Origin: Pristiophorus japonicus
Lineage: Eukaryota
Direction: 5' to 3'
DNA length: 58,790 nucleotides
NCBI RefSeq assembly: GCF_044704955.1
Contig: NW_027254618.1
Span: 186,001-244,790, forward strand
The notes beneath the pieces are model-generated. The model was given only the letters and a program-made list of their open reading frames with translations, made no database searches and had not been told where the DNA came from. This document shows positions 1,821 through 57,489 of the stretch, piece by piece (within the stretch, counting starts at the first letter, position 1; every line of letters starts with the position of its first letter). The position numbers and the translations under genes were made by a program.

Positions 1821-1906
1821 GCTTTCCAGAAAATTAAACTCCAGCCCAGTTATAGGGATTAATTACATCAGTGGCAACAAACCCCAACTGTCCAAGTGAA
1901 CACGGT

Positions 1907-3171
1907 TCAGTCCTGGATGTGATTAACAGCAGAATCCACACCTGCAGTGTGAACTTGCTGGTGTCTCAGTAGGTGGGACGACTGAATGAATCCCTTCCCA
2001 CACTCAGAGCAGGTGAACGGCATCTCCGCAGTGTGAGTGCGTTGGTGTGCCAGCAGGTTGAATGAACGAGTGAATCTCTTCCCACACTCAGAACAGGTGA
2101 ACGGCCTCTCCCCAGTGTGAGTGCGTTGGTGTGTCATCAGATCCTTTCTGCTTTTAAAGCTCTTCTCACAGTCAGAACATTTAAACGGTCTCTTATTGGT
2201 GTGAACAAGTTGGTGTTCAGTGAGCTGGGATGAACGAGTGCATGCCTTCCCACACACAGAACAGGTAAAATGTTTCTCCCCGTTGTGAACAGGTTGGTGT
2301 GCAGTGAGCTGGCATGAACGAGCGAATTCCATACCACACATGGAACACGTGAACGGCCTTTCCCCGGTGTGAACTCGCTGGTGTTCAGTGAGGATGGATG
2401 AACGAGCGAATCCCTTCCCACACACAGAGCAGATGAACGGCCTCTCCCCGCTGTGAACTCGCTGGTGTCTCAGCTGATGAGATGATTTAGCAAACCCTTT
2501 CCCACATATGGAGCAGATGAATGGTCTCTCCCCAGTATGAACTCACTGGTGTTCAGTGAGGCGTGAAGAACAAGTGAATCCCTTCCCACACACGGAGCAG
2601 ATGAATGGTTTCTTCCCAGTGTGAACTCGCTGGTGCTCAGTGAGGTTGGATGACTGCCTGAACCTCTTCTCGCAGTAAGAGCAACTGAATGGCCTCTCCC
2701 CAGTGTGAACTCGTTGGTGTTGATTTAGTTCACGAGAGGTTTTAAAGCTGTTCCCACAGTCAGAGCATTTAAAAGGTCTCTCATTCGTGTGAACTCGCTG
2801 GTGTGATAGAAGGTGAGCTGAATGAATGAATCCCTTCCCACACACAGGGCAGGTGAACGGCCTCTCCCCGGTGTGACGACGTCGATGAGTTTCCAGCTCA
2901 GAGGGGCAATTGAATCCCTTCCCACAATCTCCACATTCCCATGTTTTCTCCGTGATGTGGGTGTCCTTGTGTCTCTCCAGGTTGGACGATCAGTTGAAGC
3001 CTCGTCCACACACACACACGTGTACGGTTTCTCCCCGTTGTGAATGGTGCGATGTTTCTCCTTCCACTTTAAAAGGCCGATGATATCCAGCTCCTGATGA
3101 ATGGAGTGACTCTGTCAGATCTGACATATTTGGTTGGGTTTTCCGTCTGCAAATGCTCCCCTTCTAATATC
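1907..3171 (-). pseudogene. C2H2 zinc-finger gene exon (~13 fingers, TGERPF linkers), disrupted
   Basis: Tandem C-x2-C-x12-H-x3-H fingers in one frame; in-frame TGA at 2543-2545 and 2990-2992; the ATG found in the paralog (MEKPW) is ACG here (2953); TTTTACAG acceptor ends at 3172; AATAAA near 1367-1372. Confidence 0.9.
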
Positions 3172-25210: not shown

Positions 25211-25479
25211 ACTGAAGGTACTGACTCTGGCTGGGTTCAATTCTACACTCACTGGTTCTCCTCGCCTGAAGGTGCTGACTCTGGCCGAATTGAGTTCTAA
25301 ACTCACTTGTTCCCTTCCCTTTCCCTCCCCTGATGGTGCTGACTCTGGCTGGGTTTAATTCTACAATCACTGGTTTCCTCTCCCTCTCTGAAGTGCTGGC
25401 TATCTTAGATCTGGTCCTGTGTAATGAGATAGGATTAATAAACAATCTCCTAGTGAAGGATCCCCTTGAAATGAGTGAT

Positions 25480-26610
25480 CGGTACCTCTCTGTTTCTGGT
25501 ATCAGAGTGTGTGTTTTATTCTGTACCTGTCAGTTTTTGTGAAGTGAGTGAGAGATTTATTCTGTACCTGTCAATCTCTGCTATGTGTGAGTTGGGATTT
25601 ATTGTGTACCCGTCAAGTTTTGATATGCGAGTATGGGTTTTATTCTGTACCTGCCAGTTTCTGGTATGTGAGTGTGGGTTTTATTCTGTACCTGTCAGTT
25701 TCTGGTATCTGAGTGTGTACTTTAACCTATATCATCAGCTTCTGGAAGGTAAGTGTGGATATTGACCAGTATCTGTCAGTTTTTCGGATTGGAATATGGA
25801 TTTTATTCTGTACCTATCAGATTCCGGTATGGGAGTATGGGGTTGAATCGGTACCTGTCAGTTTCTGATATGTGACTGTGGTTTTAATCTGTACCGGTCA
25901 CTTTCTGGTATCCAAGTGTGGATTGCATTCTGTACCTGACAGTTTCTGGAATCTGGGTGTTGATTATATTCTGTACCTGTCAGTTTTTGCTTTGTGAATG
26001 TGGATTTTATTCTGTTCTGGTCAGTTACTGCTGTGTGAGTGTAGGAATTAATATGTACCTCCAGTTTCTGGTATGTGATTGTGTTTTTTTTCTGCACCTG
26101 TCAGTTTGTGGTAGATGTGTAGGGTGTCAGTTTCTGGTATTCAAATGTGGATTTTTATCTTTATATGTCAGTTTGTGCAATGTGAATGTGGGATTCATTT
26201 TGTATCTCTCATTCTGGGGTAAGTGAGTGTGTGTTTCCTCTGTACCTGTTAGTTTCTGGTATGAGAGTGTGGGTTTTATTCTGTATCTCTCATTCTGGGG
26301 TAAGTGAGCGTGTGTTTCCTCTGTACCTGTCAGTTTCCGGTATGTGAGTGTGGGTTTTATTCTGAACCTGTCATTTTCTAGTATCTGAGTGGGATTTATT
26401 CTGTATCTGTCAGCTTCTGGTATGTTAGTGTGTTTTATCCTATATCTGTGAATTTTTTTTCCTCATTATATTGGATGAATGCGATTCAGAAATATTTCGA
26501 GTAGAGACGAGCTATTATGCGTCAGTGGTACAGTGAGTGAGTGTGGGATTCACTCTGTATCTGACAGTCAGGGGTACAGTGAGTGAGTGTGAGATTCATG
26601 CTGTATCTGT
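25480..26610. repeat. 41-bp satellite
   Basis: Consensus GTGAGTGTGGGTTTTATTCTGTACCTGTCAGTTTCTGGTAT. Confidence 0.9.
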
Positions 26611-37057: not shown

Positions 37058-38006
37058 TCACAAGTTCAGACAAAGAATGAGAAACTCCTCCCACATCTGC
37101 CCTTCTTATACATTCTGGAGGGATGCAGGGAGCGAACTTGTGATTGGTCGCTCTGAAGTGGATTTCATTGGTCTTTTCCGCTGACCAATCACCGTCTGTT
37201 TAGCCCGCCAATGTAAACAGGGCGAAAATTACTGTTCGACTGCCAACGAATCTTCAATTTCAAAAACCCCGCCAATAATTTTTACAATGCGGATTATGTT
37301 AATAAATTCAACATTAGCCAAAGATTTCCAAACACTTTTTATTTCCTTTTGCCGTATTCTTTATTGCCTTCCAAATTCCAGGATGTTACAATCAGGATTA
37401 AATTCGGGTTCAGTTTCAAACGTTCTGTAACGGGACACATTCCAGCTCAATCTTTGTACAATTTGGGAATCACAGATCATGGATCGATCATCCGCACAGG
37501 CGGCAGTGAGACCAGAACTGGGAGTTCTTCTGTGAAAAGAGGGACAGAGGGTTCAAACTCCCTGTTCTGGTCTCTGTAAGAACTCCCAGTCTGGGCTGTT
37601 GCACTCGGAATCTCGGATTAATAAGCGGGTTGACCCGAACTAGAATTTTTTTTATATTGTAAAGGGTTTGAGAGAGAATGAGGTGACTAAAGTCTGAGTT
37701 TCACCTCCTAAAACAAGATCATAATTCATTGGCAGGCGACCAGGGACAGTGTGTGCAGTTTACTGGGAGGAAAATTCATCAGAGAAGCTAAGGTTGAACC
37801 GGACAGTAAAACCGCTTATCTGATAATTCAAATCTAAATCTACAGCTGGAATTTTAAATGCTGTCAAACACACTTGCTCAGGAAATAAATACAGTAAATT
37901 GAGTTTAAAGGGTGATGTGTTTGTGCAGCTCTTTCAGAGACGTTGTGGGTGGCTCTTAAAAGAGCCGTTGTGTTTAGGGATTGTTGTGTCAGGACAACGT
38001 GGAGTT

Positions 38007-38384
38007 TTACTTGGAGCTGGTGTACTTGGTCACCGCCTTTGTCCCTTCCGATACGGCGTGCTTGGCCAGCTCCCCGGGTAGCAGCAGACGCACGGCGGTC
38101 TGGATCTCCCGGGAGCTGATGGTGCGGCGCTTGTTGTAATGGGCCAGGCGGGAAGCCTCACCTGCGATGCGCTCGAAAATATCGTTCACAAAAGAGTTCA
38201 TGATGCCCATGGCCTTGGAGGAGATGCCGGTGTCGGGGTGAACCTGCTTCATCACTTTGTAGATGTAGATGGAGTAACTCTCCTTCCTCGACTTCCTGCG
38301 CTTCTTACCGCCCTTTGGTGGTGTTTTCTTGATCACTTTCTTGGCGCCTTTCTTGGCAGTAACTGATTTCTTCTCTTCAGGCAT
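38007..38384 (-). CDS. H2B: Histone H2B (125 aa)
   Basis: [28 protein letters not shown]; stem-loop at 37951-37966; TATA, octamer-like ATTAGCAT and CCAAT upstream. Confidence 0.96.
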
Positions 38385-40341: not shown

Positions 40342-41672
40342 TTATCCCTTCTGGAGGGATGCAGGGAGCGAACTTGTGATTGGTCACTCTGTCGTGGATT
40401 TCATTGGCCGTTTCCGATGACCAATCACAGCCTGTCTAGTCCACCAATGAAAGGAGGGCGGAAATTACTGGTTTCCCAACAGCCAGAACCTAACGATTTT
40501 TTAAATTCAAAAATCCCGCCAATAATTGTGAAAATTGCGGATTGAGTTAGTAACTTCACCATTAGCCAAATACTTCAAAACACTTTTTGTTTCCTTTTGT
40601 CTTATTCCATATTTCCCTTGCAAATTCCAGCCTGTAACAATTAGGATTAAATTCGGCTTCAGCTTCAAACTGTCTGTAACGGGCGGGACTCAGTCCCCAC
40701 TGATTCTGTAACAGGACACATTCCAGCTCCATCTTCGTAAAAGTGAACTTGTTTTCACAGGAGCTGCTGTGGGAGTGAGACCAGAACTGAGAGTCCTTCT
40801 GTAAAAAGAGAAGAGGGACAGGGTGTTCAAACTGCCCCTGTTCCAATCTCTAAGAACTCCCATTCTGGGTTGTTACACTGCGGGGAGTCTCGAGTTAATA
40901 AACGGACTGAGCGCAACGGAATAAAAAAAACTCGTGAAAAGGACTTGATTGAGAACGTGACTGAAATCGGAGTTTCCCCGCCCCCCAAAATAAATTCGTC
41001 GGCATGCGCTGTGAATGAACGGGTCTGAGAACAAAGGGAAAGCGACCAGGGACCGTGTTTGTAGTTTACTCACTGCAGGAAATTCCAGCGACGCCAAGGT
41101 CAAGCCGGTCAGTGAAGCTACTTATGAGAATTCAAAACTAAATCTACAGCTGGAACTACAAAGGTTCTCACACACACTTGTTCAGGAAATAATTACAGTA
41201 AATTCAGTCTAAAGGGTGATGTTTGTGCAGCTCTTTCAATGATGTTGTGGGTGGCTCTTAAAAGAGCCGTTGTGTTTGGGGTTTGTTCTGTCAGGACAGC
41301 GTGGAGTTTTACTTGGAGCTGGTGTATTTGGTCACCGCCTTTGACCCTTCCGACACGGCGTGCTTGGTCAGCTCCCCGGGCAGCAGCAGGCGCACGGCGG
41401 TCTGGATCTCCCGGGAACTGATGGTGCGGCGTTTGTTGTAATGGGCCAGGCGGGAAGCCTCACCCGCAATGCGCTCGAAAATATTATTCACAAACGAGTT
41501 CATGATGCCCATGGCCTTGGAGGAGATGCCGGTGTCGGGGTGAACCTGCTTCATCACTTTGTAGATGTAGATAGCATAACTCTCCTTCCTCGAATTTCGG
41601 CGCTTCTTGCCGCCCTTTGGTGATGTTTTTTTGATGACTTTTTTGGCACCCTTTTTCGAAGCTGGTTTCTTT

Positions 41673-41984
41673 TTTTATTATTCGTTGCCAATCTTTCCAA
41701 TTCTTTGTGAGATCATAAACGCCAGAGGTCACCTTGCACCCATCAAGGATCACTCTGCGCCAATGCTCTTAGCCAAAAGGCCTCGAGCCCAAGCACCGTT
41801 CCTGGAAGTACTGCAATATCAGGTTCGTGCCATGGAGGTGGATGGGTCAAGCCCCACACCCACCTCCTATTTCCAAAAAGCATAGGAGAACCACCTTCCT
41901 GATCCAGGGAGAACCACTTTCTGGTCATGGTTATTCCCCTGTCAGGTCAGTTACGCATGATCTTGGCCAAAAAACCGAGAAGCT
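41673..41984 (-). mobile_element. U2/U1 snRNA-derived SINE-like element, copy C (full length)
   Basis: GCTTCTCGGtTTTTGGCcAAGATCA (U2 5'), ACTGACCTGACAGGGGAATAACCATGA..GTGGTTCTCCC (U1 5'), TATTGCAGTACTTCCAGGAACGGTGC (U2 3'), A-rich tail, target duplication. Confidence 0.85.
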
Positions 41985-41993
41985 GGTTTCTTT

Positions 41994-42345
41994 TTTTTTA
42001 AATTCGTAGCCAATCGTTCCAATTCTTTGTCAAATCACAAACGCCAGAGGTCACCTTGGGCCCATTCAAGGATCACTCTGCGCCAATGCTCTTAGCCAAA
42101 AGGCCTAGAGCCACTGCACCGTTCCTGGAAGTACTGCAATACCAGGTTCGTGCCATGGAGGTGGATAGGTCAGGTCCCCCACACACCTCCGTGGAGGTGG
42201 ATGGGTCAAACCACCCCACCCACCTCCTATTTCCAAAAAAGCAAGCATATACCTTCCTGATCCAGGGAGAACCACCTTGGGGTTATGGTGGTTACTCCCC
42301 TGTCAGGTCAGTTACGCATGATCTTAGCCAAAAGGCCGAGAAGCG
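41994..42345 (-). mobile_element. U2/U1 snRNA-derived SINE-like element, copy B (full length)
   Basis: 27 nt identical to vertebrate U2 nt 3-29; U1-like segment; 32/33 match to the U2 3' end; poly(A) followed by AAAAGAAACC. Confidence 0.88.
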
Positions 42346-42354
42346 GGTTTCTTT

Positions 42355-42588
42355 TTTTTTAAAATTCGTAGCCAATCGTTCCAACTCTCCGTCAAATCAC
42401 AAACGCCAGAGGCCACCCTGCACCTGCCAAGGACCACTCTGCGCCAATGCTCCTAGCCAAAAGGCCCAGAGCCACCGCACCGCCCCTGGAAGCACCGCAA
42501 CACCAGGCTCGTGCCATGGAGGTGGACGGGCCAGGTCCCCCACACACCCCCGTGGAGGCGGATGGGCCAACCCTCCCCACCCACCTCG
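42355..42588 (-). mobile_element. U2/U1 snRNA-derived SINE-like element, copy A (5'-truncated, A-to-G hypermutated)
   Basis: Aligns to the 3' ~225 nt of copy B with about 21 A-to-G differences; poly(A) and target duplication. Confidence 0.85.
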
Positions 42589-43177
42589 GGTTTCTTTTCC
42601 TCAGGCATCGTCTTGTTCAGTCGGGTAGATATGAAGGAAATTTTGCTCCGGGCTCGCATTATGTAGGTAGCCCCACACTCCGCCCACAACCTTATGCTAA
42701 TGAGGGATGGGTGAAGGCAATGACTGTGATTGGTTCATTGGCTGCGTTGTCAATTTCCATTGTTCTGTATCTCTCTGATTGGTATCTTTAAACATCCAAT
42801 CAGATTTATTGTTTGCCACAATCTCAAATTCTTAAATTAGGTCATCAATGACATCCCCTCCCGATTTATATTCCGTTTTTGTTTCTATTCTGCTCTCAGG
42901 CAAAAATGGTTAATGACGGCCGGACTTATGAGGAAGGTTCATTCACGTTTTTTTCTATATATACATTCAATAATCTGAACAGCTGTGTTTGTCGATCTAC
43001 ATTTCTACATGTTCGAGACATTGACCGGTTTGTAACCGAGATTTCCTGAGGGTCACTTCTGATCAGGACTTGGGAGTCCTTCTATGAGGGCAAGGGACCC
43101 TCACTGTCCTTCTGCCCTGATGCTGCCTTCCTCCCATCGTTTAATTCAACATCTTTCTTATCTGTCACTGCTGTAAC

Positions 43178-44719: not shown

Positions 44720-45031
44720 TCAGCCGCCGAATCCATAGAGAGTGCGGCTCTGCTGTTTCAGAGCGTACACCACATCCATGGCAGTGACAGTCTTGCGCTT
44801 GGCGTACTCAGTGTCGGTGACCGCATCCCTGATCACATTCTCCAGAAAAACCCTCAGCACCCCGCGGGTTTCCTCGTAGATCAGGCCCGAGATCCGCTTG
44901 ACACGGCCACGGCGAGCCAGGCGGCGGATGGCTGGTTTGGTGATGCCCTGGATGTTATTACGGAGCACTTTATGGTGCCGTTTGGCTCTGCCTTTACCCA
45001 GTCCTTTGCCTCCTTTACCTCCTCCAGCCAT
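44720..45031 (-). pseudogene. H4: Divergent histone H4 (open ORF, 11 substitutions)
   Basis: S1A,R3G,G14R,R19H,D24N,G42R,K59R,Y72D,H75Y,R92Q,G94S; stem-loop near 44670-44685; upstream sequence is H2A-promoter-like. Confidence 0.8.
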
Positions 45032-45965: not shown

Positions 45966-46910
<945 letters not shown>

Positions 46911-46964
46911 GATATGTTTCAATAGTGAAACAGCATTTGATCCTACCGCTCTGTGTGGCTGTAA

Positions 46965-48270
46965 GATTCACAATGTAACTCAGCCACTTCGGATCACTGT
47001 TGGACTGACAGCTTCTGCTGCCTGCGATAACAGGATTGAGGTCAGTTCTGTGTCTCTGCGCTCTGAGTGATAATGTACTTACTGTATGCGAGAAGGAGCT
47101 GCCTGCACTTTGTCTTGTGTTCTGGATGGAAGAAATATCATTTTATACTGGCTCAATGAAGTATTTTGCTTTGAGAATAATAATACCAGAAAAATATTAG
47201 TTATGATATGGACAACTGATGGGGAAAATATAAAATAAAGTTGCAATGAATGTATATGTTTATAATAAAGTAAAATATCTGGAGAGAGGAAACCGTGATA
47301 CAAACAGTGTCCTTGTCTGACCTCACTGCAGTACAGCGGCACTCAGATTTTCCACACCAGGTGTGTAGGACGGTTCTATAGAAAGTTATCAGCAACCAGA
47401 CACAACCCAAACCCAGCACTGGTCCATGAATGGGATCACCCGATTAATACAATCAAGGTTTATATCCTCCACTCCCATAGGACTACCTGTAAAATTCTGA
47501 ATCGCTTTCTGGATTATAACCACAGGTACATGGGCTGTACAACAATTGTTCTCAGTCTATTGGAACCGAGTTAAGTGCCTGTGCAGTCAACAGAATGTCA
47601 CAGAGCCCGGATCATGATGTATCGGAGGGAGCAACAATGTATCTCTCGATCACCTTCAACACGGTTCTGGAGAACTCAACGCACCAAAACAAAATGACCA
47701 AATTTGAAATGTCTACTTTCTGTCCTGGTGCCTGCAATAGATACACTTTGTGACACTCCTCACATCCTCACTGTCAGGCTGTGTTTCCACTGTTCAATGT
47801 CCAAGAAGGGCAGACACGGTGAGATTGGGACTGAATCAGGAACATTCACTACTGGTTTGGTGACAGAAACCAGCAATGATTTGAAAGAGTGTGGTGATTA
47901 ACTTTCTCTGTTACCTTACACTGTACACACACAGCCCGGGATATCTCCGCTCCCTTCCCCCACTCACTCCACGTTCCCGAACTACTTTCTGCTCCATTCT
48001 GCCTCTTACAAACAGCCCCCGATTCCCTGACACAAAGCCCATTTGCGGACACAGTCCCAACGCGATGAGCTGCTGTAAGGTGGCTGCTGTTTGCTCCCTT
48101 ACACTGGCCCGGGATATCTCCGCTCCCTGATGTGTTCAATGATTATCAGCCCAGCACAGAGGAAATGGCAGCCACAGGCAGAGTTGGGGGAGGGGAGGTC
48201 GCATAGGCCCTTCCCGTCGGTTTAAACACTGGGCGGGGAGACGAGTGGCCGGGGGCGGGGGGGCAGCAGG
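46965..48270 (-). other. Repeated non-coding module, copy 2
   Basis: Colinear with 54745-56680; GTAAGT donor on - at 47077-47082. Confidence 0.65.
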
Positions 48271-48351
48271 CAAGTATTTCAATGCTCGAGTGTGAAGTTT
48301 GGAGGTGGATCTGGAAGCTCAGAGGCCGCTGTCTCTGTTCAATCTGTCACC

Positions 48352-48672
48352 CTGTATTGTTCAGACTATGGGATGTGAGTCTGTGTTTTACATTGTATAG
48401 TTCAGACTATGGGATGTGAGTGTGTGTTTTACACTGTATAGTTCAGACTATGGGATGTGAGTGTGTGTTTCACACTGTATTGTTCAGACTATGGGATGAG
48501 AGTGTGTGTTTTACACTGTATAGTTCAGACTATGGGATGTGAGTGTGTGTTTTACACTGTATATTTCAGACTATGGGATGTGAGTGTGTGTTTCACACTG
48601 TATTGTTCAGACTATGGGATGTGAGTGTGGGTTTTACACTGTATTGATCAGACTATGGGATGTGAGTGTGTT
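48352..48672. repeat. Homogeneous 41-bp tandem repeat, about 8 copies
   Basis: Unit TTCAGACTATGGGATGTGAGTGTGTGTTTTACACTGTATAG. Confidence 0.93.
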
Positions 48673-48689
48673 GTTAAATTTTATATGAA

Positions 48690-49683
48690 TGGAAAAGCCG
48701 AATGTTTAAAAGAAGAGAGACTAGTAAATGTAGTTATTCAGGGGGATTTGAGTATCATTGTACACGAATCACATAGTTAACTTGCAGCTACTGCAAGCAA
48801 TTAGGAAGGTAAAGGATATGTTGGCCTTTATTACAAGGGGTTTGGAGTATAAGAGTAAAGAAGTGTGGCTGCAATTATGTCGGGCTTTGGTGAGACCACA
48901 CCTGGATTACTGGGCACAGTTTTGGTCTCAGTGCCTAAGGAAGGATATTAGAGGGGGTGCAACATTGAATCCTGGGATAGAGAGATTGAGTGAAATGCAC
49001 CTATACACTCTGGAGTTTAGAAGAATGAGAGCTGAGCTCATTGAAACCTAAAAAAAAAATCTTAGAAGGCTTGACAGGGTAGGTGCTGTGAGGATGTTTC
49101 CCTTTGCTGGATAGTCTCGATCTAGGGGGTCATAGAAACATAGAAAATAGGTGCAGGAGTAGGCCATTCGGCCCTTCTAGCCTGCACCGCCATTCAATGA
49201 GTTCATGGCTGAACATGCAACTTCAGTACCCCATTCCTGCTTTCTCACCATACCCCTTGATCCCCCTAGTAATAAGGACTTCATCTAACTCGTTTTTGAA
49301 TATATTTAGTGAATTAGCCTCAACAACTTTCTGTGGTAGAGAATTCCACAGGTTCACCACTCTCTGGGTGAAGAAGTTCCTCCTCATCTCGGTCCTAAAT
49401 GGCTTACCCCTTATCCTTAGACTGTGTCATAGTCTCAGGATAAGGGATCAGGCACTTAGGACTGAGATGAGGAGAAATATATTCACTCAGAGGGATGTGA
49501 ATCCTTGGAATTCTATACACATAGGTCTGAGACACTCATTGAGTATATTCAAGACAGAGAACAAAGGGAATCAAGGGAAATGGGTATCAGGCAGGAGTTC
49601 AGGGTGAAGTTCAGCCATGAATGTAATGAATTGCGGAGCAGGCTCGAGCGGCCTTACTGCCTGCTATTTCTTATTTTCTTATA
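48690..49683 (+). mobile_element. Old CR1 with a young inverted CR1 3' end nested at 49136-49425
   Basis: RPHLDYWAQFWS motif; GTCATAG duplicated at 49129-49135 and 49426-49432. Confidence 0.85.
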
Positions 49684-51603
49684 GCTGTCAGTATCTGGTA
49701 TGTGAGTGTTGTTCTTTCTTCAGTTTTTGGTGGGCAAAAGTGGGTTTTATTATACACCATGTCAGCTTCTGGAATATGACTGCGAGTTCCACTCTGTTTT
49801 TGCCTGTCTCCAGGATGCGAGTGTGGATTTTCCTATGTACCTGTCGGTCTCTGGTATGTCAATGCAGGTATTACCCTGCACCTGTCAGTTTCTCGTATGT
49901 GATTGGGGATTTATTCTGTACTTGTCATTTTCTGAATTTGTAACATGGGTTTTCCTCTGTACCTGCCAGTTTCTGGGATGTGAGTGTTAATTCTTTCTGA
50001 TTCTGTCTGTTTCCGGTATAGGAATGTAGGTAAAACTCTGTAGTTCTCAGTCTCTGGGATGTGAGTGTGCGTTTTACTCTATCAGTCAGTCTTCGGTATG
50101 TGAGTGTGGGTTTTATTCTATAGCTGTCCTTCTCTGCTGTGCGAGTGTGATTTTACACTTTATCATTCAGACTCTGGTATGTGAGTGGGGTTTTATTCTG
50201 TACCTGTCATTTTCTGATATGTTAACGTGGGCTTTAATCAGAACCTGCCAGTTTCTGATATGCGAGTGTGGATTTTAGCCTGTATCTGTCAGTTTATGAT
50301 ATGTGAGAGTGGGTATCTCTCATTGTCTTTTATGTAAGTGTAAGTTTTACTCTGTATTGCTTAGTCTTGGATATGGGAGTACAGAATTTGCTCTATGGTT
50401 GTCTGTCTGTGTGATGCAAGTGTAGATTTTACTCTGTATCTGTTAGTCTCTGATGTGAGAGTGAGAGTTTTACTCTGTCAGTTTCTGGTATGCAAGTGTG
50501 ATTTTCTTCTATCATTCAGGCTCTGGGATGAAAGTGAGAGTTTTACTCTCTGTTAATATCTGCGACGTGAGTCTGGGTTGTCCTCTGTAACTTTCATTTT
50601 CTCAAATCTGAGTTGGGTTTTATTTTGTACCTGTTAGTTTCTAGTATATGAATAGGGGTTTTAATCTGTACCTGTCAGTATCTGCTGTGATAGTGCTGCT
50701 TTTGTGCTGTATCTGTCAGTTTCTGATATGTGAGTCTGTTTTAATCTGTACCTGTTAGGTTGTGGTACGTGAGCGTGTGTTTGTTTGACTCTGCATCGAT
50801 CAGTATCTTTTATGTGGCTGTTGATTTTGCTCTGTAGTTGTCACTCTCTGGGATGTGAATGTGGGTTTGACTCTGTAGCTGTCATTTTCTTATGTGTGAG
50901 TGTGTCATAGACTGTATGTGTCACTCTATGGTGTGAGTGTGGGCTTTACTCTGTATCTGTCAGTTTTTGGAATGTGAGTTTGGTTTTAATCTTTACCTGT
51001 CAATTTCTGGTATTTGTCTGTTGTTGTTACACTCCAACCGTTAGTTTCCAGGATGTGATTGTGTATTTTAATCAGTACCTGCCAGTTTCTTGTACCGGAG
51101 TGTGGATATTAGTCATATCTTCCAGTCTCTGGTATGTGAGTGTGTGTTTTACTTTATAGCTGTCTGACTCTGGGATGCAAGTGTACATTTTATTCTGTAT
51201 CTATTGGTTTACAGAATGTGTTAACAAAAGCTGAAGGGTACAGAATAAAAGTTATGTGAATATCCATTTTACTCTGCACCAGTCACTTTCCAATAGGTGT
51301 GTGTGGATTTTAACCTAGATCTGCCAGTCAGTCAGTCTGTTACCATATGTGATTGTGATTCAATCGCAATCTGTCATTCACTGTACCCGAGTGTATGTAT
51401 CATTATGTGTGTCTCAGTCTCTAGCACTGTTTGTGGGTGTGGGGTCCATTCTGTGTCTCTCAGTCCCTGGCACTGTTTGTGGGTATGGGGTTCATTCTGT
51501 AACTGTCAGTTTCTGTTACTGTTTGAGAGTGTGAGATTGATTATGTATCTGTTAGACTGGTGATGTGTGTGAGTGTGAGATTCATTATGTAATTGACAGT
51601 CTC
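49684..51603. repeat. Degenerate 41-bp satellite
   Basis: Recurrent TCTGTACCTGTCAGTTTCTGGTATGTGAGTGTG variants. Confidence 0.85.
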
Positions 51604-51604
51604 T

Positions 51605-54440
51605 TAGAAACATAGAAAATAGGTGCAGGAGTAGGCCATTCGGCCCTTCTAGCCTGCACCGCCATTCAATGAGTTCATGGCTGAACATGCAACTTCAGTA
51701 CCCCATTCCTTCTTTCTCACCATACCTCTTGATTCCCCTAGTAGTAAGGACTTCATCTAACTCCTTTTTGAATATATTTAGTGAATTGGCCTCAACAACT
51801 TTCTGTGGTAGAGAATTCCACAGGTTCACCACTCTCTGGGTGAAGAAATTCCTCCTCATCTCGGTCCTAAATGGCTTACCCCTTATCCTTAGACTGTGTC
51901 CCCTGGTTCTGGACTTCCCCAACATTGGGAACATTCTTCCTGCATCTAACCTGTCTAACCCCGTCAGAATTTTAAACGTTTCTATGAAGTCCCCTCTCAT
52001 TCTTCTGAACTCCAGTGAATACAAGCCCAGTTGATCCAGTCTTTCTTGATGGGTCAGTCCCGCCATCCCGGGAATCAGTCTGGTGAACCTTCGCTGCACT
52101 CCCTCAATAGCAAGAATGTCCTTCCTCAGGTTAGGAGACCAAAACTGTACACAATACTCCAGGTGTGGCCCCACCAAGGCCCTGTACAACTGTAGCAACA
52201 CCTCCCTGCCCCTGTACTCAAATCCCCTCGCTATGAAGGCCAACATGCTATTTGCTTTCTTAACCGCCTGCTGTACCTGCATGCCAACCTTCAATGACTG
52301 ATGTACCATGACACCCAGGTCTCGTTGCACCTCCCCTTTTCCTAATCTGTCACCATTCAGATAATAGTCTGTCTCTCTGTTTTTACCACCAAAGTGGATA
52401 ACCTCACAGTTATCCACATTATACTTCATCTGCCATGCATTTGCCCACTCACCTAACCTATCCAAGTCGCTCTGCAGCCTCATAGCATCCTCCTCGCAGC
52501 TCACACTGCCACCCAACTTAGTGTCATCCGCAAATTTGGAGATACTACATTTAATCCCATCGTCTAAATCATTAATGTACAGTGTAACAGCTGGGGCCCC
52601 AGCACAGAACCTTGCGGTACCCCATTAGTCACTGCCTGCCATTCTGAAAAGTCCCCATTTACTCGTACTCTTTGCTTCCTGTCTGACAACCAGTTCTCAA
52701 TCCATGTCAGCACACTACCCCCAATCCCATGCTTTAACTTTGCACATTAATCTCTTGTGTGGGACCTTGTCGAAAGCCTTCTGAAAGTCCAAATATACCA
52801 CATCAACTGGTTCTCCCTTGTCCACTCTACTGGAAACATCCTCAAAAAATTCCAGAAGATTTGTCAAGCATGATTTCCCTTTCACAAATCCATGCTGACT
52901 TGGACCTATCATAGCACCTCTTTCCAAATGCACTGCTATGACATCCTTAATAATTGATTCCATCATTTTACCCACTACCGATGTCAGGCTGACTGGTCTA
53001 TAATTCCGTGTTATCTCTCTCCCTCCTTTTTTTAAAAAGTGGGGTTACATTGGCTACCCTCCACTCCATAGGAACTGATCCAGTCAATGGAATGTTGGAA
53101 AATGACTGTCAATGCATCCACTATTTCCAAGGCCACCTCCTTAAGTACTCTGGGATGCAGGCCATCAGACCCTGGGGATTTATCGGTCTTCAATCCCATC
53201 AATTTCCCCAAACAATTTCCTGACTAATAAGGATTTCCCTCAGTTCCTCCTCCTTTCTAGACCCTCCGACCCCTTTTATATCCGGAAGGTTGTTTGTGTC
53301 CTCCTCAGTGAATACCGAACCAAAGTACTTGTTCAATTGGTCCGCCATTTCTTTGTTCCCCGTTATGACTTCCCCTGATTCTGACTGCAGGGGACCTACG
53401 TTTGTCTTTACTAACCTTTTTCTCTTTACATATCTATAGAAACTTTTGTAATCCGTCTTAATGTTCCCTGCAAGCTTCTTCTCGTACTCCATTTTCCCTG
53501 CCCTAATCAAACCCTTTGTCCTCCTCTGCTGAGTTCTAAATTTCTCCCAGTCCCCGGGTTCGCTGCTATTTCTGGCCAATTTGTATGCCACTTCCTTGGC
53601 TTTAATACTATCCCTGATTTCCCTTGATAGCCACGGTTGAGCCACCTTCCCTTTTTTATTTTTACGCCAGACAGGAATGTACAATTGTTGTAGTTCATCC
53701 ATGCGGTCTCTAAATGTCTGCCATTGCCCATCCACAGTCAACCCCTTCAGTATCATTCGCCAATCTATCCTAGCCAATTCACGCCTCATACCTTCAAAGT
53801 TACCCTTCTTTAAGTTCTGGACCATGGTCTCTGAATTAACTGTTTCATTCTCCATCCTAATGCAGAATTCCACCATATTATGGTCACTCTTCCCCAAGGG
53901 GCCTTGCACAACGAGATTGCTAATTAATCCTCTCTCATTACACAACACCCAGTCTAAGATGGCCTCCCCCCTAGTTGGTTCCTCGACATATTGGTCTAAA
54001 AAACCATCCCTTATGCACTCCAGGAAATCCTCCTCCACCGTATTGCTTCCAGTTTGGTTAACCCAATCTATGTGCATATTAAAGTCACCCATTATAACTG
54101 CTGCACCTTTATTGCACGCACCCCTAATTTCATGTTTGATGCCCTCCCAAACATCACTACTACTGTTTGGAGGTCTGTACACAACTCCCACTAACGTTTT
54201 TTGCCCTTTGGTATTCTGCAGCTCTACCCATATAGATTCCACATCATCCAAGCTAATCTCCTTCTGAACTATTGCCTTAATTTCCTCCTTAGCCAGCAAT
54301 GCTACCCCACCTCCTTTTCCTTTTATTCTATCTTTCCTGAATGTTGACTACCCCTGGATGTTGAGTTCCCAGCCCTGATAATCCTGGAGCCACGTCTCCG
54401 TAATCCCAATCACATCATATTTGTTAACATCTATTTGCAC
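51605..54440 (-). mobile_element. Long CR1 LINE (most of ORF2: endonuclease and RT, frameshifted)
   Basis: ORFs 53199-54299 (YRPPN, MGDFN, SDH), 52715-52975 (YLDFQKAFDKVPH) and 51695-52516; intact 3' tail. Confidence 0.95.
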
Positions 54441-54744
54441 TGTACTGTGCTATTCTTGCTCTGTGTGACTGTTGGATTCTGTTCCTTCTTTAGGCCTATG
54501 TTAGTTTGAGATTATCCGCGATTGTCTCAGGAGGAGGTTTGGTTCAGTCCATTACCTCCGTTTCTCTGCTCTTGTATGTTAGTTGCTGCGTTTGAGAGTC
54601 AGTGTACAGACATCAGTGTGGATTGACACCGTGTCAGTCAGTCCTTGTGTGTGAGTAAGGGAGTGAAAATGGATCTGCCTCTCAGAGCGATATGTTTGGA
54701 CTTTGAAACATCATCTTATTGTACTGTTCCAAGTGACAGTGGGA

Positions 54745-56680
54745 GTCATAATGTAACTCTGGGATTCGGATCACTGTGGGACTGACAGCTTCTGCTACCT
54801 GTGACAATATGATTGAGATCAGTTCTGTGCCTCTGTGAGTGATAATGTACTTACTGTGTGTGAGAAGGAGCTGCCTGCACTGTTCCTTGTGTTCCAGGTG
54901 GCGGAAGGATCACATTTATTCTGGGGGTGAAGTATTTTGCTCTGAGAATAATAATGAGAAAAATATTAGGTACAAGTCATGGACAGGTGCCCATAGACTA
55001 TAACAATAGTTATAATTACTGTGTATTTTTATCACAAAGTAAAGTATCTGGAGAGAGGAATGCGCGATACAAACAGTGACATTGTCTGACCTCACTGCAG
55101 TACAGCGGCACTCAGATTCTCTCATCATCATCATCATCATCATAGGCGGTCCCTCGAACCAGGATGACTTGCTTCCACGTGAGTTCAGATGTTTCAATGA
55201 AGGACCTGATATTCCAGTCCTGAACTCCAATTGAAAGGGTGGAAGATGCCTGTGCGTGGATTTTTTAAACGTGTGGTGACCATTACACATCAGCCACCAC
55301 ACGGGCTTGACAGAGCTCGGCCTTTATCCAGTAGCAAGGGTTGACCAGGACTGGAGACCTGCTCGGCTGCACAGACCTAGTGCGCACAGACCCAGTGTGG
55401 GCTGGCCTGTGCTGCCCCTGGGCCCTGTACCCTCATTCGCCGCACCTCCGTCACAATCTCTCGCCGCTCCTCCGCCACAAACATTCGCCGCACCTCCGCC
55501 ATGATCTCCCACCGCACATCCATTACAAACATTTGCCGAACCTCCGCCACGATCTCTCGCCGCTCCTCCGCCATAAAACACTTGCCGCACCTCCGTCATG
55601 ATCGCCCACCGCACATCCACACCAAACATTCGCCGAACCTCCGCCACGATCACCCACCGAATCTCAGCCACGATCCCTCAATGCCCCTCCGCCTCGATCA
55701 CTCACCACACCTCCGCCACGACCATGAGCAGAGGAGCGGGACGGTCGTGGTGGAGGTGTGGCGAGTGATCAGATTCCCCACACCAGCTGTGTCAGACGGT
55801 TCTATAGTAAGTTATCAGCATCCAGACACAACCCAAACCCAGCACTGGTCCATGAATGGGAACACCCGATTGGCAGAGTCCAGGTTTATATCTCCCACTT
55901 CCATGGGACAATCTGTAAAGTTCTGAATCGCTTCCTGGAATATAACCACAGGTATCTGGGCTGTACAACAATTGTTTTCAGTCTAATGAAACAGAGCTGA
56001 GAGCCTGTACAGTTAACAGAATGTCACAGATGTATCTGAGGGAGCGACAATGTATCTCTCGATCACCAGCAACACGGTTCTAGAGAATTCAACGCACCGA
56101 AACAAAATAACCGATTATTGAAATGTCTCCTGTCACACTCCTCTCCTGGTGCCTGCAATAGATGCACTTTGTGACACTCCTCCCATCCTCACTCTCAGGC
56201 TGTGTTTCCACTGTTCAATGTCCCAGAACAACAGACACTGTGAGATTGGAACTGAATCAGGAACATTCATTACTGATTTGGGGAAAGAAAGCAGCACTGA
56301 TTTGAAAGTGCGAGGTGGTTTACTTTCTCTGTTACCTTACACCGTACACACACAGCCCGAGAATGGCCTCTCCCTTCCCCCACTCACTCCATGTTCCGGA
56401 ACTAGTTCCTGCTCCACTCCACCTATTACAGACAGCCCCCGACTGCCGCTGCACTTACCCCGACTCAAAGGCCATCTGTGGACACAGTCCCAATGTGCTG
56501 TAAGGAGGCTGCTGTTTGCTCCCTTACTTGGGCCCGGGATATCTCCGCTCTCTGATGTGTTCAACGATCATCAGCCCAGCACAGAGTAAACGGCAGCCGC
56601 TGACAGAGCTGGAGGAGGGGAGCTTGCCTGGGCCCTGCTTGTCGGTTTAAACACTGTGTGGGGAGGGGAGGAGCAGCATG
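54745..56680 (-). other. Repeated non-coding module, copy 3
   Basis: Colinear with copy 2 except for the insertion at 55120-55768; GTAAGT donor at 54849-54854. Confidence 0.65.
55120..55768 (-). mobile_element. Non-LTR insertion with (ATG)n tail (RTE-like) containing a GC-rich ~37-bp minisatellite
   Basis: (CAT)n at 55123-55143; TCAGATTC duplicated at 55112-55119 and 55769-55776; absent from copy 2. Confidence 0.7.
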
Positions 56681-56874
56681 TATTTAGCGCATGCTCAGAC
56701 CATCTTTTTGTCACAAATTAAATTCACAAAAATGGATTGTTTCATAAGTTGATTTTATCTCTAATTAAATAGGTCACATTGAGAGGATTTTAATTATAAT
56801 CCGAATTACCAACAAAATGATTCGGTGTGCCGGACACTGGAGTGGGATTTCCTCGAGAGTTTTACTCTTTCCGT

Positions 56875-57145
56875 CAGTCTCTGGTGTGTGTGAGTGTGCC
56901 CCTGTCATTTCTGATAGGGGACTATGGGTTTTATTTGCTGCATATTATTGTTCTGATAACTGGGTGTGGGTTTTATTCTGTACCTGTCAGTCTCTGCTAT
57001 GGGAATGTGGGTTTTATTCTGTACCTGTCAGTCTATGTTGTGAAAGTGTGCATTTTACTCTGTACCTGTCAGTTTCTAATATGAGTGTGTAGATTTTTTT
57101 CTGTACCTGTCAATCTCTGGAATGTGAGTTTGGGTTTATTCTATT
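56875..57145. repeat. 41-bp satellite remnant
   Basis: Same consensus. Confidence 0.8.
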
Positions 57146-57489
57146 TTAACCTGGCTATGAACCCTGCTCCCTCACGGCATAGGTGTCCTCTGGAAATACA
57201 CTCAGCAGATCAGTACGAATCTCTTGCCAGTTATTCAAAAGTTTCAGATAAATGCACAAAATAACCAAACTGCTTCAAAAACAGACACAGGCTGTCAAAA
57301 ATAATGAAAAACAAGGCCCAGTAGATTTAGAGAGAGAGCTCGGGCTGGTGGGAATCCATCACTGGATCGTTCACATAAGCCGAGTGGATTCATTTGGTGA
57401 TAGTACGAATTCACTGGTAGGTATTCGGTGAATAAGGTAAATAATCACCAGATTGGAATTTAGCTTTTTCTTGGAACATCACAGATAAG

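What the first reader, a model, noticed from the sequence alone, without database searches (positions are those of the whole stretch)
42355..42588. A-to-G hypermutated copy: possible ADAR-edited RNA fixed in the genome
Seen: aligning copy A to copies B and C over ~225 nt gives about 21 A-to-G changes on the element sense strand and about 5 other differences. Example: ACCTGGTATTGCAGTACTTCCAGGAACGGTGCA becomes GCCTGGTGTTGCGGTGCTTCCAGGGGCGGTGCG. B and C match the U2 consensus in this segment, so the direction is A to G. Known: clustered strand-specific A-to-G is the signature of ADAR A-to-I hyper-editing read by reverse transcriptase. Inference: the RNA was edited in the germline before insertion, which also supports independent insertion. 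Caveat: about a third of the sites have a 5' G, which ADAR disfavours.
Basis: partly seen in the sequence, partly recalled or inferred. Interest (0 to 1): 0.8.

Follow-up and report, generated by a model that had tools for sequence, protein, structure and literature searches.

The report
RNA-edited retroposon copies in genomic DNA
A recently inserted copy of a small jumping element in this large vertebrate genome, like at least 24 other copies of its family and six copies of an unrelated LINE, carries many A-to-G changes on its RNA strand only, likely because the RNA-editing enzyme ADAR edited the RNA before it was copied into DNA, which would make RNA editing a source of heritable mutation.

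Summary
Confirmed and extended. Copy A (42356-42586, minus strand) is a 5'-truncated copy of a young U2-snRNA-derived SINE (5,418 places genome-wide). Against its nearest family copy it has 21 A>G changes among 45 adenosines and no other substitution. It has a 12-nt target-site duplication, and four paralogous loci lack it. Contigs from two runs of one sample carry 10 of the 21 G alleles exactly. It is not unique: 25 copies (about 0.5%) carry 5-33 A>G, in total 381 A>G against 7 T>C. No two share a G set, and they sit on six subfamily backgrounds. The edited fraction follows the 5' neighbour U 0.45, A 0.42, C 0.21, G 0.11, which is ADAR's order. Six copies of an unrelated LINE show the same one-strand burst. 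Best reading (0.85): ADAR hyper-edited RNA was reverse-transcribed into the genome, repeatedly and independently. ADAR action, the dsRNA partner and population fixation are not shown directly. Ten literature searches found no report for genomic SINE or LINE copies; the effect is known for avian retroviral sequences. This scan noted similar mammalian L1 copies before (unchecked AI notes).

The parts
42356..42586 (-). Copy A: 5'-truncated U2-derived SINE with A tail; 21 A>G of 45 A on the sense strand, no other substitution versus nearest copy
   Evidence: absent from paralogous loci L002-L005, 243-nt gap including one duplication
42587..42598 (-). 5' copy of A's 12-nt target-site duplication (10 nt of H2B plus the first 2 nt of copy B, so A inserted after B); adenosines unedited
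42344..42355 (-). 3' copy of A's 12-nt target-site duplication, identical to the 5' copy
41995..42345 (-). Copy B: full-length, unedited, about 99% identical to many dispersed copies; U2 5' hairpin, weak U1-like stretch, U2 Sm site and stem-loops III/IV, second U2-like hairpin, unique tail, A tail
   Evidence: Rfam U2 56.3 bits; U1 20.6 bits, E 0.003, far below gathering 69.5
41674..41984 (-). Copy C: older subfamily, unedited, 80% identical to B with indels
41983..41994 (-). Target-site duplication between B and C
41662..41673 (-). Target-site duplication 3' of C, continuing into the H2B coding sequence
42588..42608 (-). First seven codons of the interrupted histone H2B gene
   Evidence: compare intact H2B ORF 38007-38384
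41228..41673 (-). Remainder of the interrupted H2B gene and its histone 3' stem-loop (41228-41273)
   Evidence: 93% repeat of 37918-38217

Best explanation
Copy A is an independent retrotransposition of a U2-derived SINE carrying 21 sense-strand A-to-G changes, likely because its RNA was hyper-edited (A to inosine) by ADAR while paired with a complementary RNA and reverse transcriptase then read inosine as G. Shown: one-strand A>G burst, duplication and A tail, empty paralogous sites, 25 such copies with different G sets, ADAR-order 5' neighbour preference, and the same burst in an unrelated LINE. Inferred: ADAR as the enzyme; a long antisense duplex rather than the element's own hairpins; editing before reverse transcription; a germline or early-embryo event. 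About 0.5% of insertions of this family took this route.
For: 25 of 195 distinct copies examined (enriched by G-anchored searches) have 5 or more A>G; pooled 381/1508 A>G, 7/1820 T>C, 11/2226 G>A, 5/1658 C>T. Genome-wide anchored counts: G at one site in 28 places, 14 with a second G in the 28-mer; mirror T>C anchor 9 places, 0 with a second change; Fisher p 0.007. 5' neighbour U 93/205, A 140/337, C 91/440, G 57/523; site-level Spearman 0.59, p 9e-8, 69 sites; 0.52, p 4e-5, 56 sites after dropping both anchor stretches. Human ADAR1 and ADAR2 order is U>A>C>G (PMC3113232 Table 3). Independence: 0 of 300 pairs share a G set, 87 of 120 site pairs violate the four-gamete test, six subfamily backgrounds; duplications found for 13 of the first 19 edited copies. 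Editing ignores the predicted own fold (paired 0.22, unpaired 0.21); loop sites of U2 stem-loop IV are edited in 16-17 of 23-24 copies; one copy (L064) has Gs in its A tail. All 6 LINE places with three anchored Gs are hypermutated: 38-206 A>G against 1-8 T>C, one over 2.9 kb with 212 against 12. Three deaminase loci carry the HAE motif.
Against: No RNA, inosine or enzyme evidence. The dsRNA partner was not found: no opposite-strand copy within about 1.5 kb in 149 loci, though these are insertion sites, not source loci. The 3' neighbour effect is not significant at site level (p 0.40). With anchors and A removed, 5' A (0.36) exceeds 5' U (0.29). A alone has 7 of 21 edits after G. Pooling both A>G anchors (17 of 45 with a second G) weakens the mirror test to p 0.044. 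Human L1 RNA was reported unedited by ADAR1 in a cell assay (PMC5224506). Read support is one sample and 10 of 21 sites.
Confidence: 0.85

Rival explanations
1. Episodic reverse-transcriptase error: C is misincorporated opposite template A, for example under a nucleotide-pool imbalance, with no RNA editing.
For: It would also give sense-strand A>G confined to single insertions with clean flanks, and it needs no dsRNA partner, which was not found.
Against: The 5' neighbour order equals ADAR's. The spectrum is almost pure A>G at up to 51% of adenosines. In 5 of 6 LINE copies the 3'-most 200-400 columns carry few changes before a dense edited block, as a bounded duplex would give. From own knowledge, pool-bias hypermutation favours G>A and U>C through G:U/T wobble, not A>G.
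Confidence: 0.07
2. A deaminase acts on DNA during insertion (an ADAR on an RNA:DNA hybrid, or an unknown adenine deaminase) rather than on the RNA template.
For: A hybrid exists by necessity during target-primed reverse transcription, and an ADAR would leave the same neighbour order (own knowledge).
Against: Deaminating first-strand cDNA would appear as sense T>C, seen 7 times in 1,820 T and never clustered. Only the nascent sense DNA strand fits, and it pairs with cDNA, not RNA. The duplicated target DNA next to A is unedited.
Confidence: 0.04
3. One hyper-edited or G-rich master element gave rise to a subfamily, so the copies are not independent events.
For: G sets overlap more than random (for example 16 shared against 9.5 expected for A and L032); a few small sets are subsets of larger ones. 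Copies were found with G-anchored searches.
Against: No identical G sets in 300 pairs, 87 of 120 four-gamete violations, six backgrounds; median Jaccard 0.25. Shared site preference explains the overlap.
Confidence: 0.02
4. Sequencing or assembly artefact.
For: The window lies on a small unplaced contig in a repeated histone cluster; read support is partial and from one sample.
Against: Exact G haplotype in contigs of two runs. The bias follows element strand on both genome strands and on many contigs, stops at the duplication, and spares B and C next door.
Confidence: 0.02

Closest known systems
ADAR hyper-edited RNA (Porath 2014, PMC4365171; neighbour rules Eggington 2011, PMC3113232)
   Same: Dense A>G clusters on the transcript strand of repeats, G depleted one base upstream.
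   Different: There the changes are in RNA and absent from DNA; here they are in genomic DNA, inside insertions with target-site duplications.
A-to-G hyperedited avian retrovirus sequences (RAV-1, avian leukosis virus; seen only as cited in PMC8586724)
   Same: ADAR-type editing of a reverse-transcribing element's RNA.
   Different: Infectious retroviruses; here endogenous non-LTR elements, many independent genomic insertions.
APOBEC-edited endogenous retroelements (Knisbacher and Levanon, PMC4866542; Zaranek 2010, PMC2873906)
   Same: Host deaminase scar written into single genomic retroelement copies at insertion.
   Different: Those are G>A from C-to-U on cDNA, mainly LTR elements, and A>G served as a filter or comparison class; here A>G on the RNA strand of a SINE and a LINE.
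SINEU of crocodilians (Kojima 2015, PMC4494074)
   Same: U2- and possibly U1-derived pieces, A tail, duplications, 5' truncation, tandem insertions flanking a duplication, preference for a site in another transposon.
   Different: Kojima found none outside crocodilians; this host looks like a cartilaginous fish (recalled repeat motifs and genome size, not tested). The preferred target is an LTR-retrotransposon RNase H stretch, not Mariner-N4. Homology beyond the snRNA parts was not tested.

Membership tests
ADAR hyper-editing signature | A>G only, on the transcript strand | tested here: met
   381 A>G against 7 T>C in 25 copies; mirror control 0 of 9
ADAR hyper-editing signature | Dense clusters within single molecules | tested here: met
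   5-33 per copy, 21 of 45 in A
ADAR hyper-editing signature | 5' neighbour U>A>C>G | tested here: met
   0.45, 0.42, 0.21, 0.11; site-level p 9e-8; U and A swap rank when anchors are dropped; LINE 0.27, 0.22, 0.21, 0.11
ADAR hyper-editing signature | Weak 3' G preference | tested here: inconclusive
   SINE G 0.29, C 0.29, A 0.22, U 0.20, site-level p 0.40; LINE G highest at 0.24
ADAR hyper-editing signature | Long double-stranded RNA substrate | tested here: inconclusive
   Own fold is stable (z -6.0) but does not predict edited sites; no inverted neighbour in 149 loci; source loci unknown
ADAR hyper-editing signature | Catalytically competent ADAR genes in the host | tested here: met
   Six PF02137 loci; of six fetched, three show HAE in the deaminase motif, two lack the E, one gave no convincing motif; expression untested
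ADAR hyper-editing signature | Inosine in the RNA, dependent on ADAR | not testable with these tools
   Needs stranded RNA reads with matched DNA, or a knockout
Target-primed retrotransposition product | Target-site duplication, A tail, 5' truncation, empty site | tested here: met
   12-nt duplication, four empty paralogous loci
APOBEC-edited retroelement | G>A excess on the sense strand | tested here: not met
   11 of 2,226 G
SINEU | Head derived from U1 or U2 snRNA | tested here: met
   Rfam U2 above gathering in B and C; U1 only weak
SINEU | Amplified family with A tail, subfamilies and tandem insertions | tested here: met
   5,418 places, 18 of the first 100 in same-strand tandem groups; subfamilies
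SINEU | Target preference shared with a Tx1 partner LINE | tested here: inconclusive
   A hotspot exists; a zf-RVT-bearing LINE end sits beside SINE copies at L029, and a similar end at the hotspot in L230; clade not determined
SINEU | Homology to crocodilian SINEU beyond the snRNA parts | not tested
   No SINEU reference sequence was available from a tool

The most novel reading that the evidence does not exclude
ADAR editing is a recurring heritable mutational route for non-LTR retrotransposons, and in this genome it is steered. An active U2-derived SINE, of a kind so far reported only in crocodilians, inserts antisense at one site of an LTR retrotransposon. Transcripts of that host element would supply the antisense strand, the duplex would be hyper-edited, and edited RNAs would return preferentially to that same site (5 of 25 edited copies against about 2.4% of the family). 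This would explain a roughly 17-fold higher triple-G rate than in the LINE.
Probability: 0.2. Interest if true: 0.88.

Novelty: new variant of a known kind. Interest (0 to 1): 0.72.

Why it matters
A 2016 review states that roles for ADAR editing in SINE subfamily evolution and in suppressing retrotransposition by mutation had not been determined (PMC4982230). A very young family with thousands of near-identical copies gives a clean census: about 0.5% of insertions come from hyper-mutated templates, none of those found has daughter copies, and site preferences can be read from DNA alone. If ADAR is the cause, RNA editing feeds sequence into the inherited genome, hyper-edited RNA remains competent for retrotransposition, and genomes keep a record of germline ADAR activity, as they do for APOBEC. 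The same anchored-pattern test can be run on any assembly.

Tried and rejected
GC-biased gene conversion or local hypermutability: rejected, because T>C, A>C and T>G are not raised and flanks are unbiased. G as ancestral state: rejected. Editing on the element's own hairpins: not supported. Co-inserted inverted partner: none at SINE loci; two of six LINE loci have an inverted neighbour (69% and 87% identity) that is not similarly hypermutated. Expression: no RNA holder listed. Run X5 (kind not on record) has far more depth on the element than on the flank, which cannot be used as evidence. Rfam 'Prion pseudoknot' hits are below gathering and taken as chance. Pfam gave no family for two window LINE fragments, so 'CR1-like' is a recalled label; Pfam and PDB gave nothing for a 99-aa hotspot stretch, while longer stretches did match. 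No T>C mirror search was run for the LINE or for the second SINE anchor; per-copy T>C counts stand in. Earlier scan notes: none by sequence or in this genome. Carmi 2011 (doi 10.1038/ncomms1525) is not held and could bear on novelty. PMC4598827 passages held nothing relevant.

Full report
Setting. The window lies on contig C4006 of a 5.9-Gb genome and holds a histone cluster. The host looks like a cartilaginous fish from recalled repeat motifs and genome size; this was not tested. Three head-to-tail copies of one short element interrupt an H2B gene after codon 7 on the minus strand: A (42356-42586), B (41995-42345) and C (41674-41984). B and C score as U2 snRNA above Rfam's gathering threshold, and a stretch after the U2 head resembles the U1 5' end weakly (E 0.003). 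An exhaustive 28-letter pattern with R at six adenosines finds 5,418 places; the best relatives of B are 99-100% identical. This is a young U2-derived SINE.

The observation. A differs from B by 21 A>G, 3 T>C and 7 other substitutions. Against its nearest fetched family copy it differs by 21 A>G among 45 adenosines and nothing else. A is the ancestral letter: 98 of the first 100 listed places have A at all six pattern sites. Four paralogous loci, 97-99.7% identical in the flanks, hold B and C but lack exactly 243 nt, which is A plus one copy of a 12-nt duplication. The duplication includes the first two bases of B, so A came last. Some of these loci may be alleles rather than paralogues. Flank differences show no A>G excess. 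Contigs of runs X1 and X3, one sample, match 42455-42542 and 42455-42547 without a difference, which covers 10 of the 21 G alleles. Only 42340-42900 was laid, and no listed contig bridges a junction.

Other copies. A search with A and four G-anchored patterns brought more. From 180 loci, 195 distinct copies were compared with their nearest copy; exact duplicates were merged and copies within 45 nt of a locus end dropped. Of these, 25 have 5 or more A>G and 20 have 8 or more; the maxima for T>C, G>A and C>T are 5, 5 and 4. The 195 are enriched by design, so the rate comes from the genome count: about 25 in 5,418, or 0.5%. Capture-recapture from two anchors (19 and 18 copies, 12 shared) gives about 28, a lower bound because heavily edited copies are caught more easily. 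Pooled spectrum: 381 of 1,508 A>G, 7 of 1,820 T>C, 11 of 2,226 G>A, 5 of 1,658 C>T. Of 28 places with G at the first anchor, 14 have a second G in the 28-mer; of 17 with G at the second, 3 do; of 9 with the mirror T>C change, none has a second. Fisher p is 0.007 for the first anchor and 0.044 pooled.

Independence. No two of the 25 share a G set (0 of 300 pairs), 87 of 120 site pairs fail the four-gamete test in 23 long copies, and the nearest references fall into six backgrounds at one diagnostic stretch. Duplications were found for 13 of the first 19 edited copies and 18 of 28 position-ordered copies. Seventeen of 25 start within 12 nt of the element's 5' end, so whole element-length RNAs were templates. 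Non-A>G divergence is 0.5% in edited and 0.7% in position-ordered copies: the same young age.

Which enzyme. The edited fraction by 5' neighbour is U 0.45, A 0.42, C 0.21, G 0.11, and by 3' neighbour G 0.29, C 0.29, A 0.22, U 0.20. Human ADAR1 and ADAR2 prefer 5' U>A>C>G, with weaker 3' G (PMC3113232, passages and Table 3). To limit pseudo-replication I tested sites, not observations: Spearman 0.59 over 69 sites, and 0.52 over 56 sites without the anchor stretches. The low rate after C and G also holds in the 5' part that A lacks (U 0.26, A 0.31, C 0.12, G 0.07). Against: U and A swap rank in those subsets, the 3' effect is not significant (p 0.40), and A alone has 7 of 18 post-G adenosines edited. 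The genome has three deaminase loci with the HAE motif and two without the E.

Which duplex. The element folds well (z -6.0), but predicted pairing does not predict editing (0.22 paired, 0.21 unpaired, p 0.93). Loop adenosines of U2 stem-loop IV are among the most edited, and one copy has Gs in its A tail. I infer a long duplex with an antisense copy. No opposite-strand copy lay within about 1.5 kb in 149 loci, but insertion sites say nothing about source loci. Kojima argues SINEU is transcribed from flanking polymerase II promoters (PMC4494074, parts 1-4 of 5 read), which would readily give both strands.

Generality. For a LINE family of this window (CR1-like by recalled motif; no Pfam hit on two fragments), 6 of 81,047 places have three anchored Gs. 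All 6 are sense-strand hypermutated, 38-206 A>G against 1-8 T>C; one shows 212 against 12 over 2.9 kb. Their 5' neighbour fractions are U 0.27, A 0.22, C 0.21, G 0.11. The comparable triple-G count in the SINE is 7 of 5,418, about 17 times higher (p 5e-6); contexts and family ages differ, so this ratio is rough.

A lead. Several SINE insertions share one site. A pattern for it gives 175 matches, most forward places counted twice, so about 118 loci by my estimate. Of 22 distinct loci examined, 21 hold SINE-like sequence. The target is the RT-RNase H frame of an LTR retrotransposon and the SINE lies antisense to it. Five of 25 edited copies sit there, four matching the pattern, against about 2.4% of the family, itself a lower bound (P 0.003 for 4 or more). 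This was noticed after the fact and rests on small numbers; copy A is not at this site.

Mechanism. Shown: strand, density, boundaries, independence, neighbour order, two families. Inferred: sense RNA pairs with antisense RNA, ADAR deaminates 7-50% of adenosines, the RNA is still used for target-primed reverse transcription, inosine templates C, and the second strand carries G. Deamination of first-strand cDNA would give T>C and is excluded by the spectrum. Reverse-transcriptase error is not fully excluded. I give 0.85 to the ADAR-edited template.

What is known. A>G hyperediting is reported for two avian retroviruses (seen only as citations in PMC8586724 passages). APOBEC G>A scars in genomic LTR elements are established (PMC4866542 passages; PMC2873906 passages, which also counts 129 A-to-G/T-to-C clusters in human retrotransposon traces as its comparison class). 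Hyper-edited RNA clusters are described in PMC4365171 (passages). A review calls ADAR's role in Alu subfamily evolution undetermined (PMC4982230 passages), and one study found L1 RNA unedited (PMC5224506 passages). Searches (listings and abstract starts) found no report of genomic SINE or LINE copies with this scar; searches found no SINEU outside crocodilians. The library lacks most subscription papers, Carmi 2011 was not held, and no supplements were read; repeat databases were not available. Two earlier notes of this scan describe similar mammalian L1 copies; they are unchecked, came after my reading was fixed, and are not counted as support.

Verdict. It is a new variant of a known kind (deaminase scars in retroelement copies). 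Interest 0.72.

Noticed in passing
window 41674-42586 and about 5,418 places genome-wide: An active U2-derived (possibly U2/U1 chimeric) SINE family in a host that appears not to be a crocodilian; Kojima 2015 found SINEU only in crocodilians. One subfamily keeps a longer U2 head.
   Followed up: partly
L206-L235, L014, L032, L050, L103, L120, L131, L140, L143, L154: Insertion hotspot: roughly 118 loci at one site in the RNase H frame of an LTR retrotransposon, SINE antisense to it; edited copies look enriched there.
   Followed up: partly
L029:3-1052, also similar 3' ends in L053-L055, L127, L230: 3' end of a LINE with a zf-RVT domain and A tail directly beside SINE copies, once at the hotspot: candidate mobilising partner.
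   Followed up: partly
L187-L192, L205: Six A>G hypermutated LINE copies; in five the 3'-most 200-400 columns are nearly spared. L192 also has two short G-rich insertions.
   Followed up: partly
L222, L224, L232, L233: A related short element with a different 3' tail uses the same hotspot.
   Followed up: no
G000 C1, first 100 places; L032 (six copies): 18 of 100 copies lie in eight same-strand tandem groups; new copies land at the 5' duplication of an older copy.
   Followed up: partly
window 41228-42608; L002-L005: The SINE-interrupted H2B pseudogene is present at five loci, so the histone cluster unit was duplicated after B and C inserted, or some loci are alleles.
   Followed up: partly
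L064: Edited copy whose A tail begins with a G-rich run, as if the tail itself was edited.
   Followed up: no
L107-L112 (G000 C7): One SINE insertion with a single G allele is repeated with identical flanks at six or more places: segmental amplification that inflates single-G counts.
   Followed up: partly
window 44720-45031 (minus): Histone H4-like ORF with several substitutions at normally invariant residues (recalled); likely a decaying copy.
   Followed up: no
window 1890-2890 (minus): 84-nt tandem repeats encoding C2H2 zinc fingers.
   Followed up: no
window 25466-26470 and 46061-57180: Arrays of a 41-nt satellite-like unit, 63 copies in several blocks.
   Followed up: no
run X5 on window 42340-42900: Depth up to 5.5e5 on the element against under 40 on the flank, unlike the DNA-like runs; library kind not on record, so only a pointer to a possible RNA data set.
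   Followed up: no
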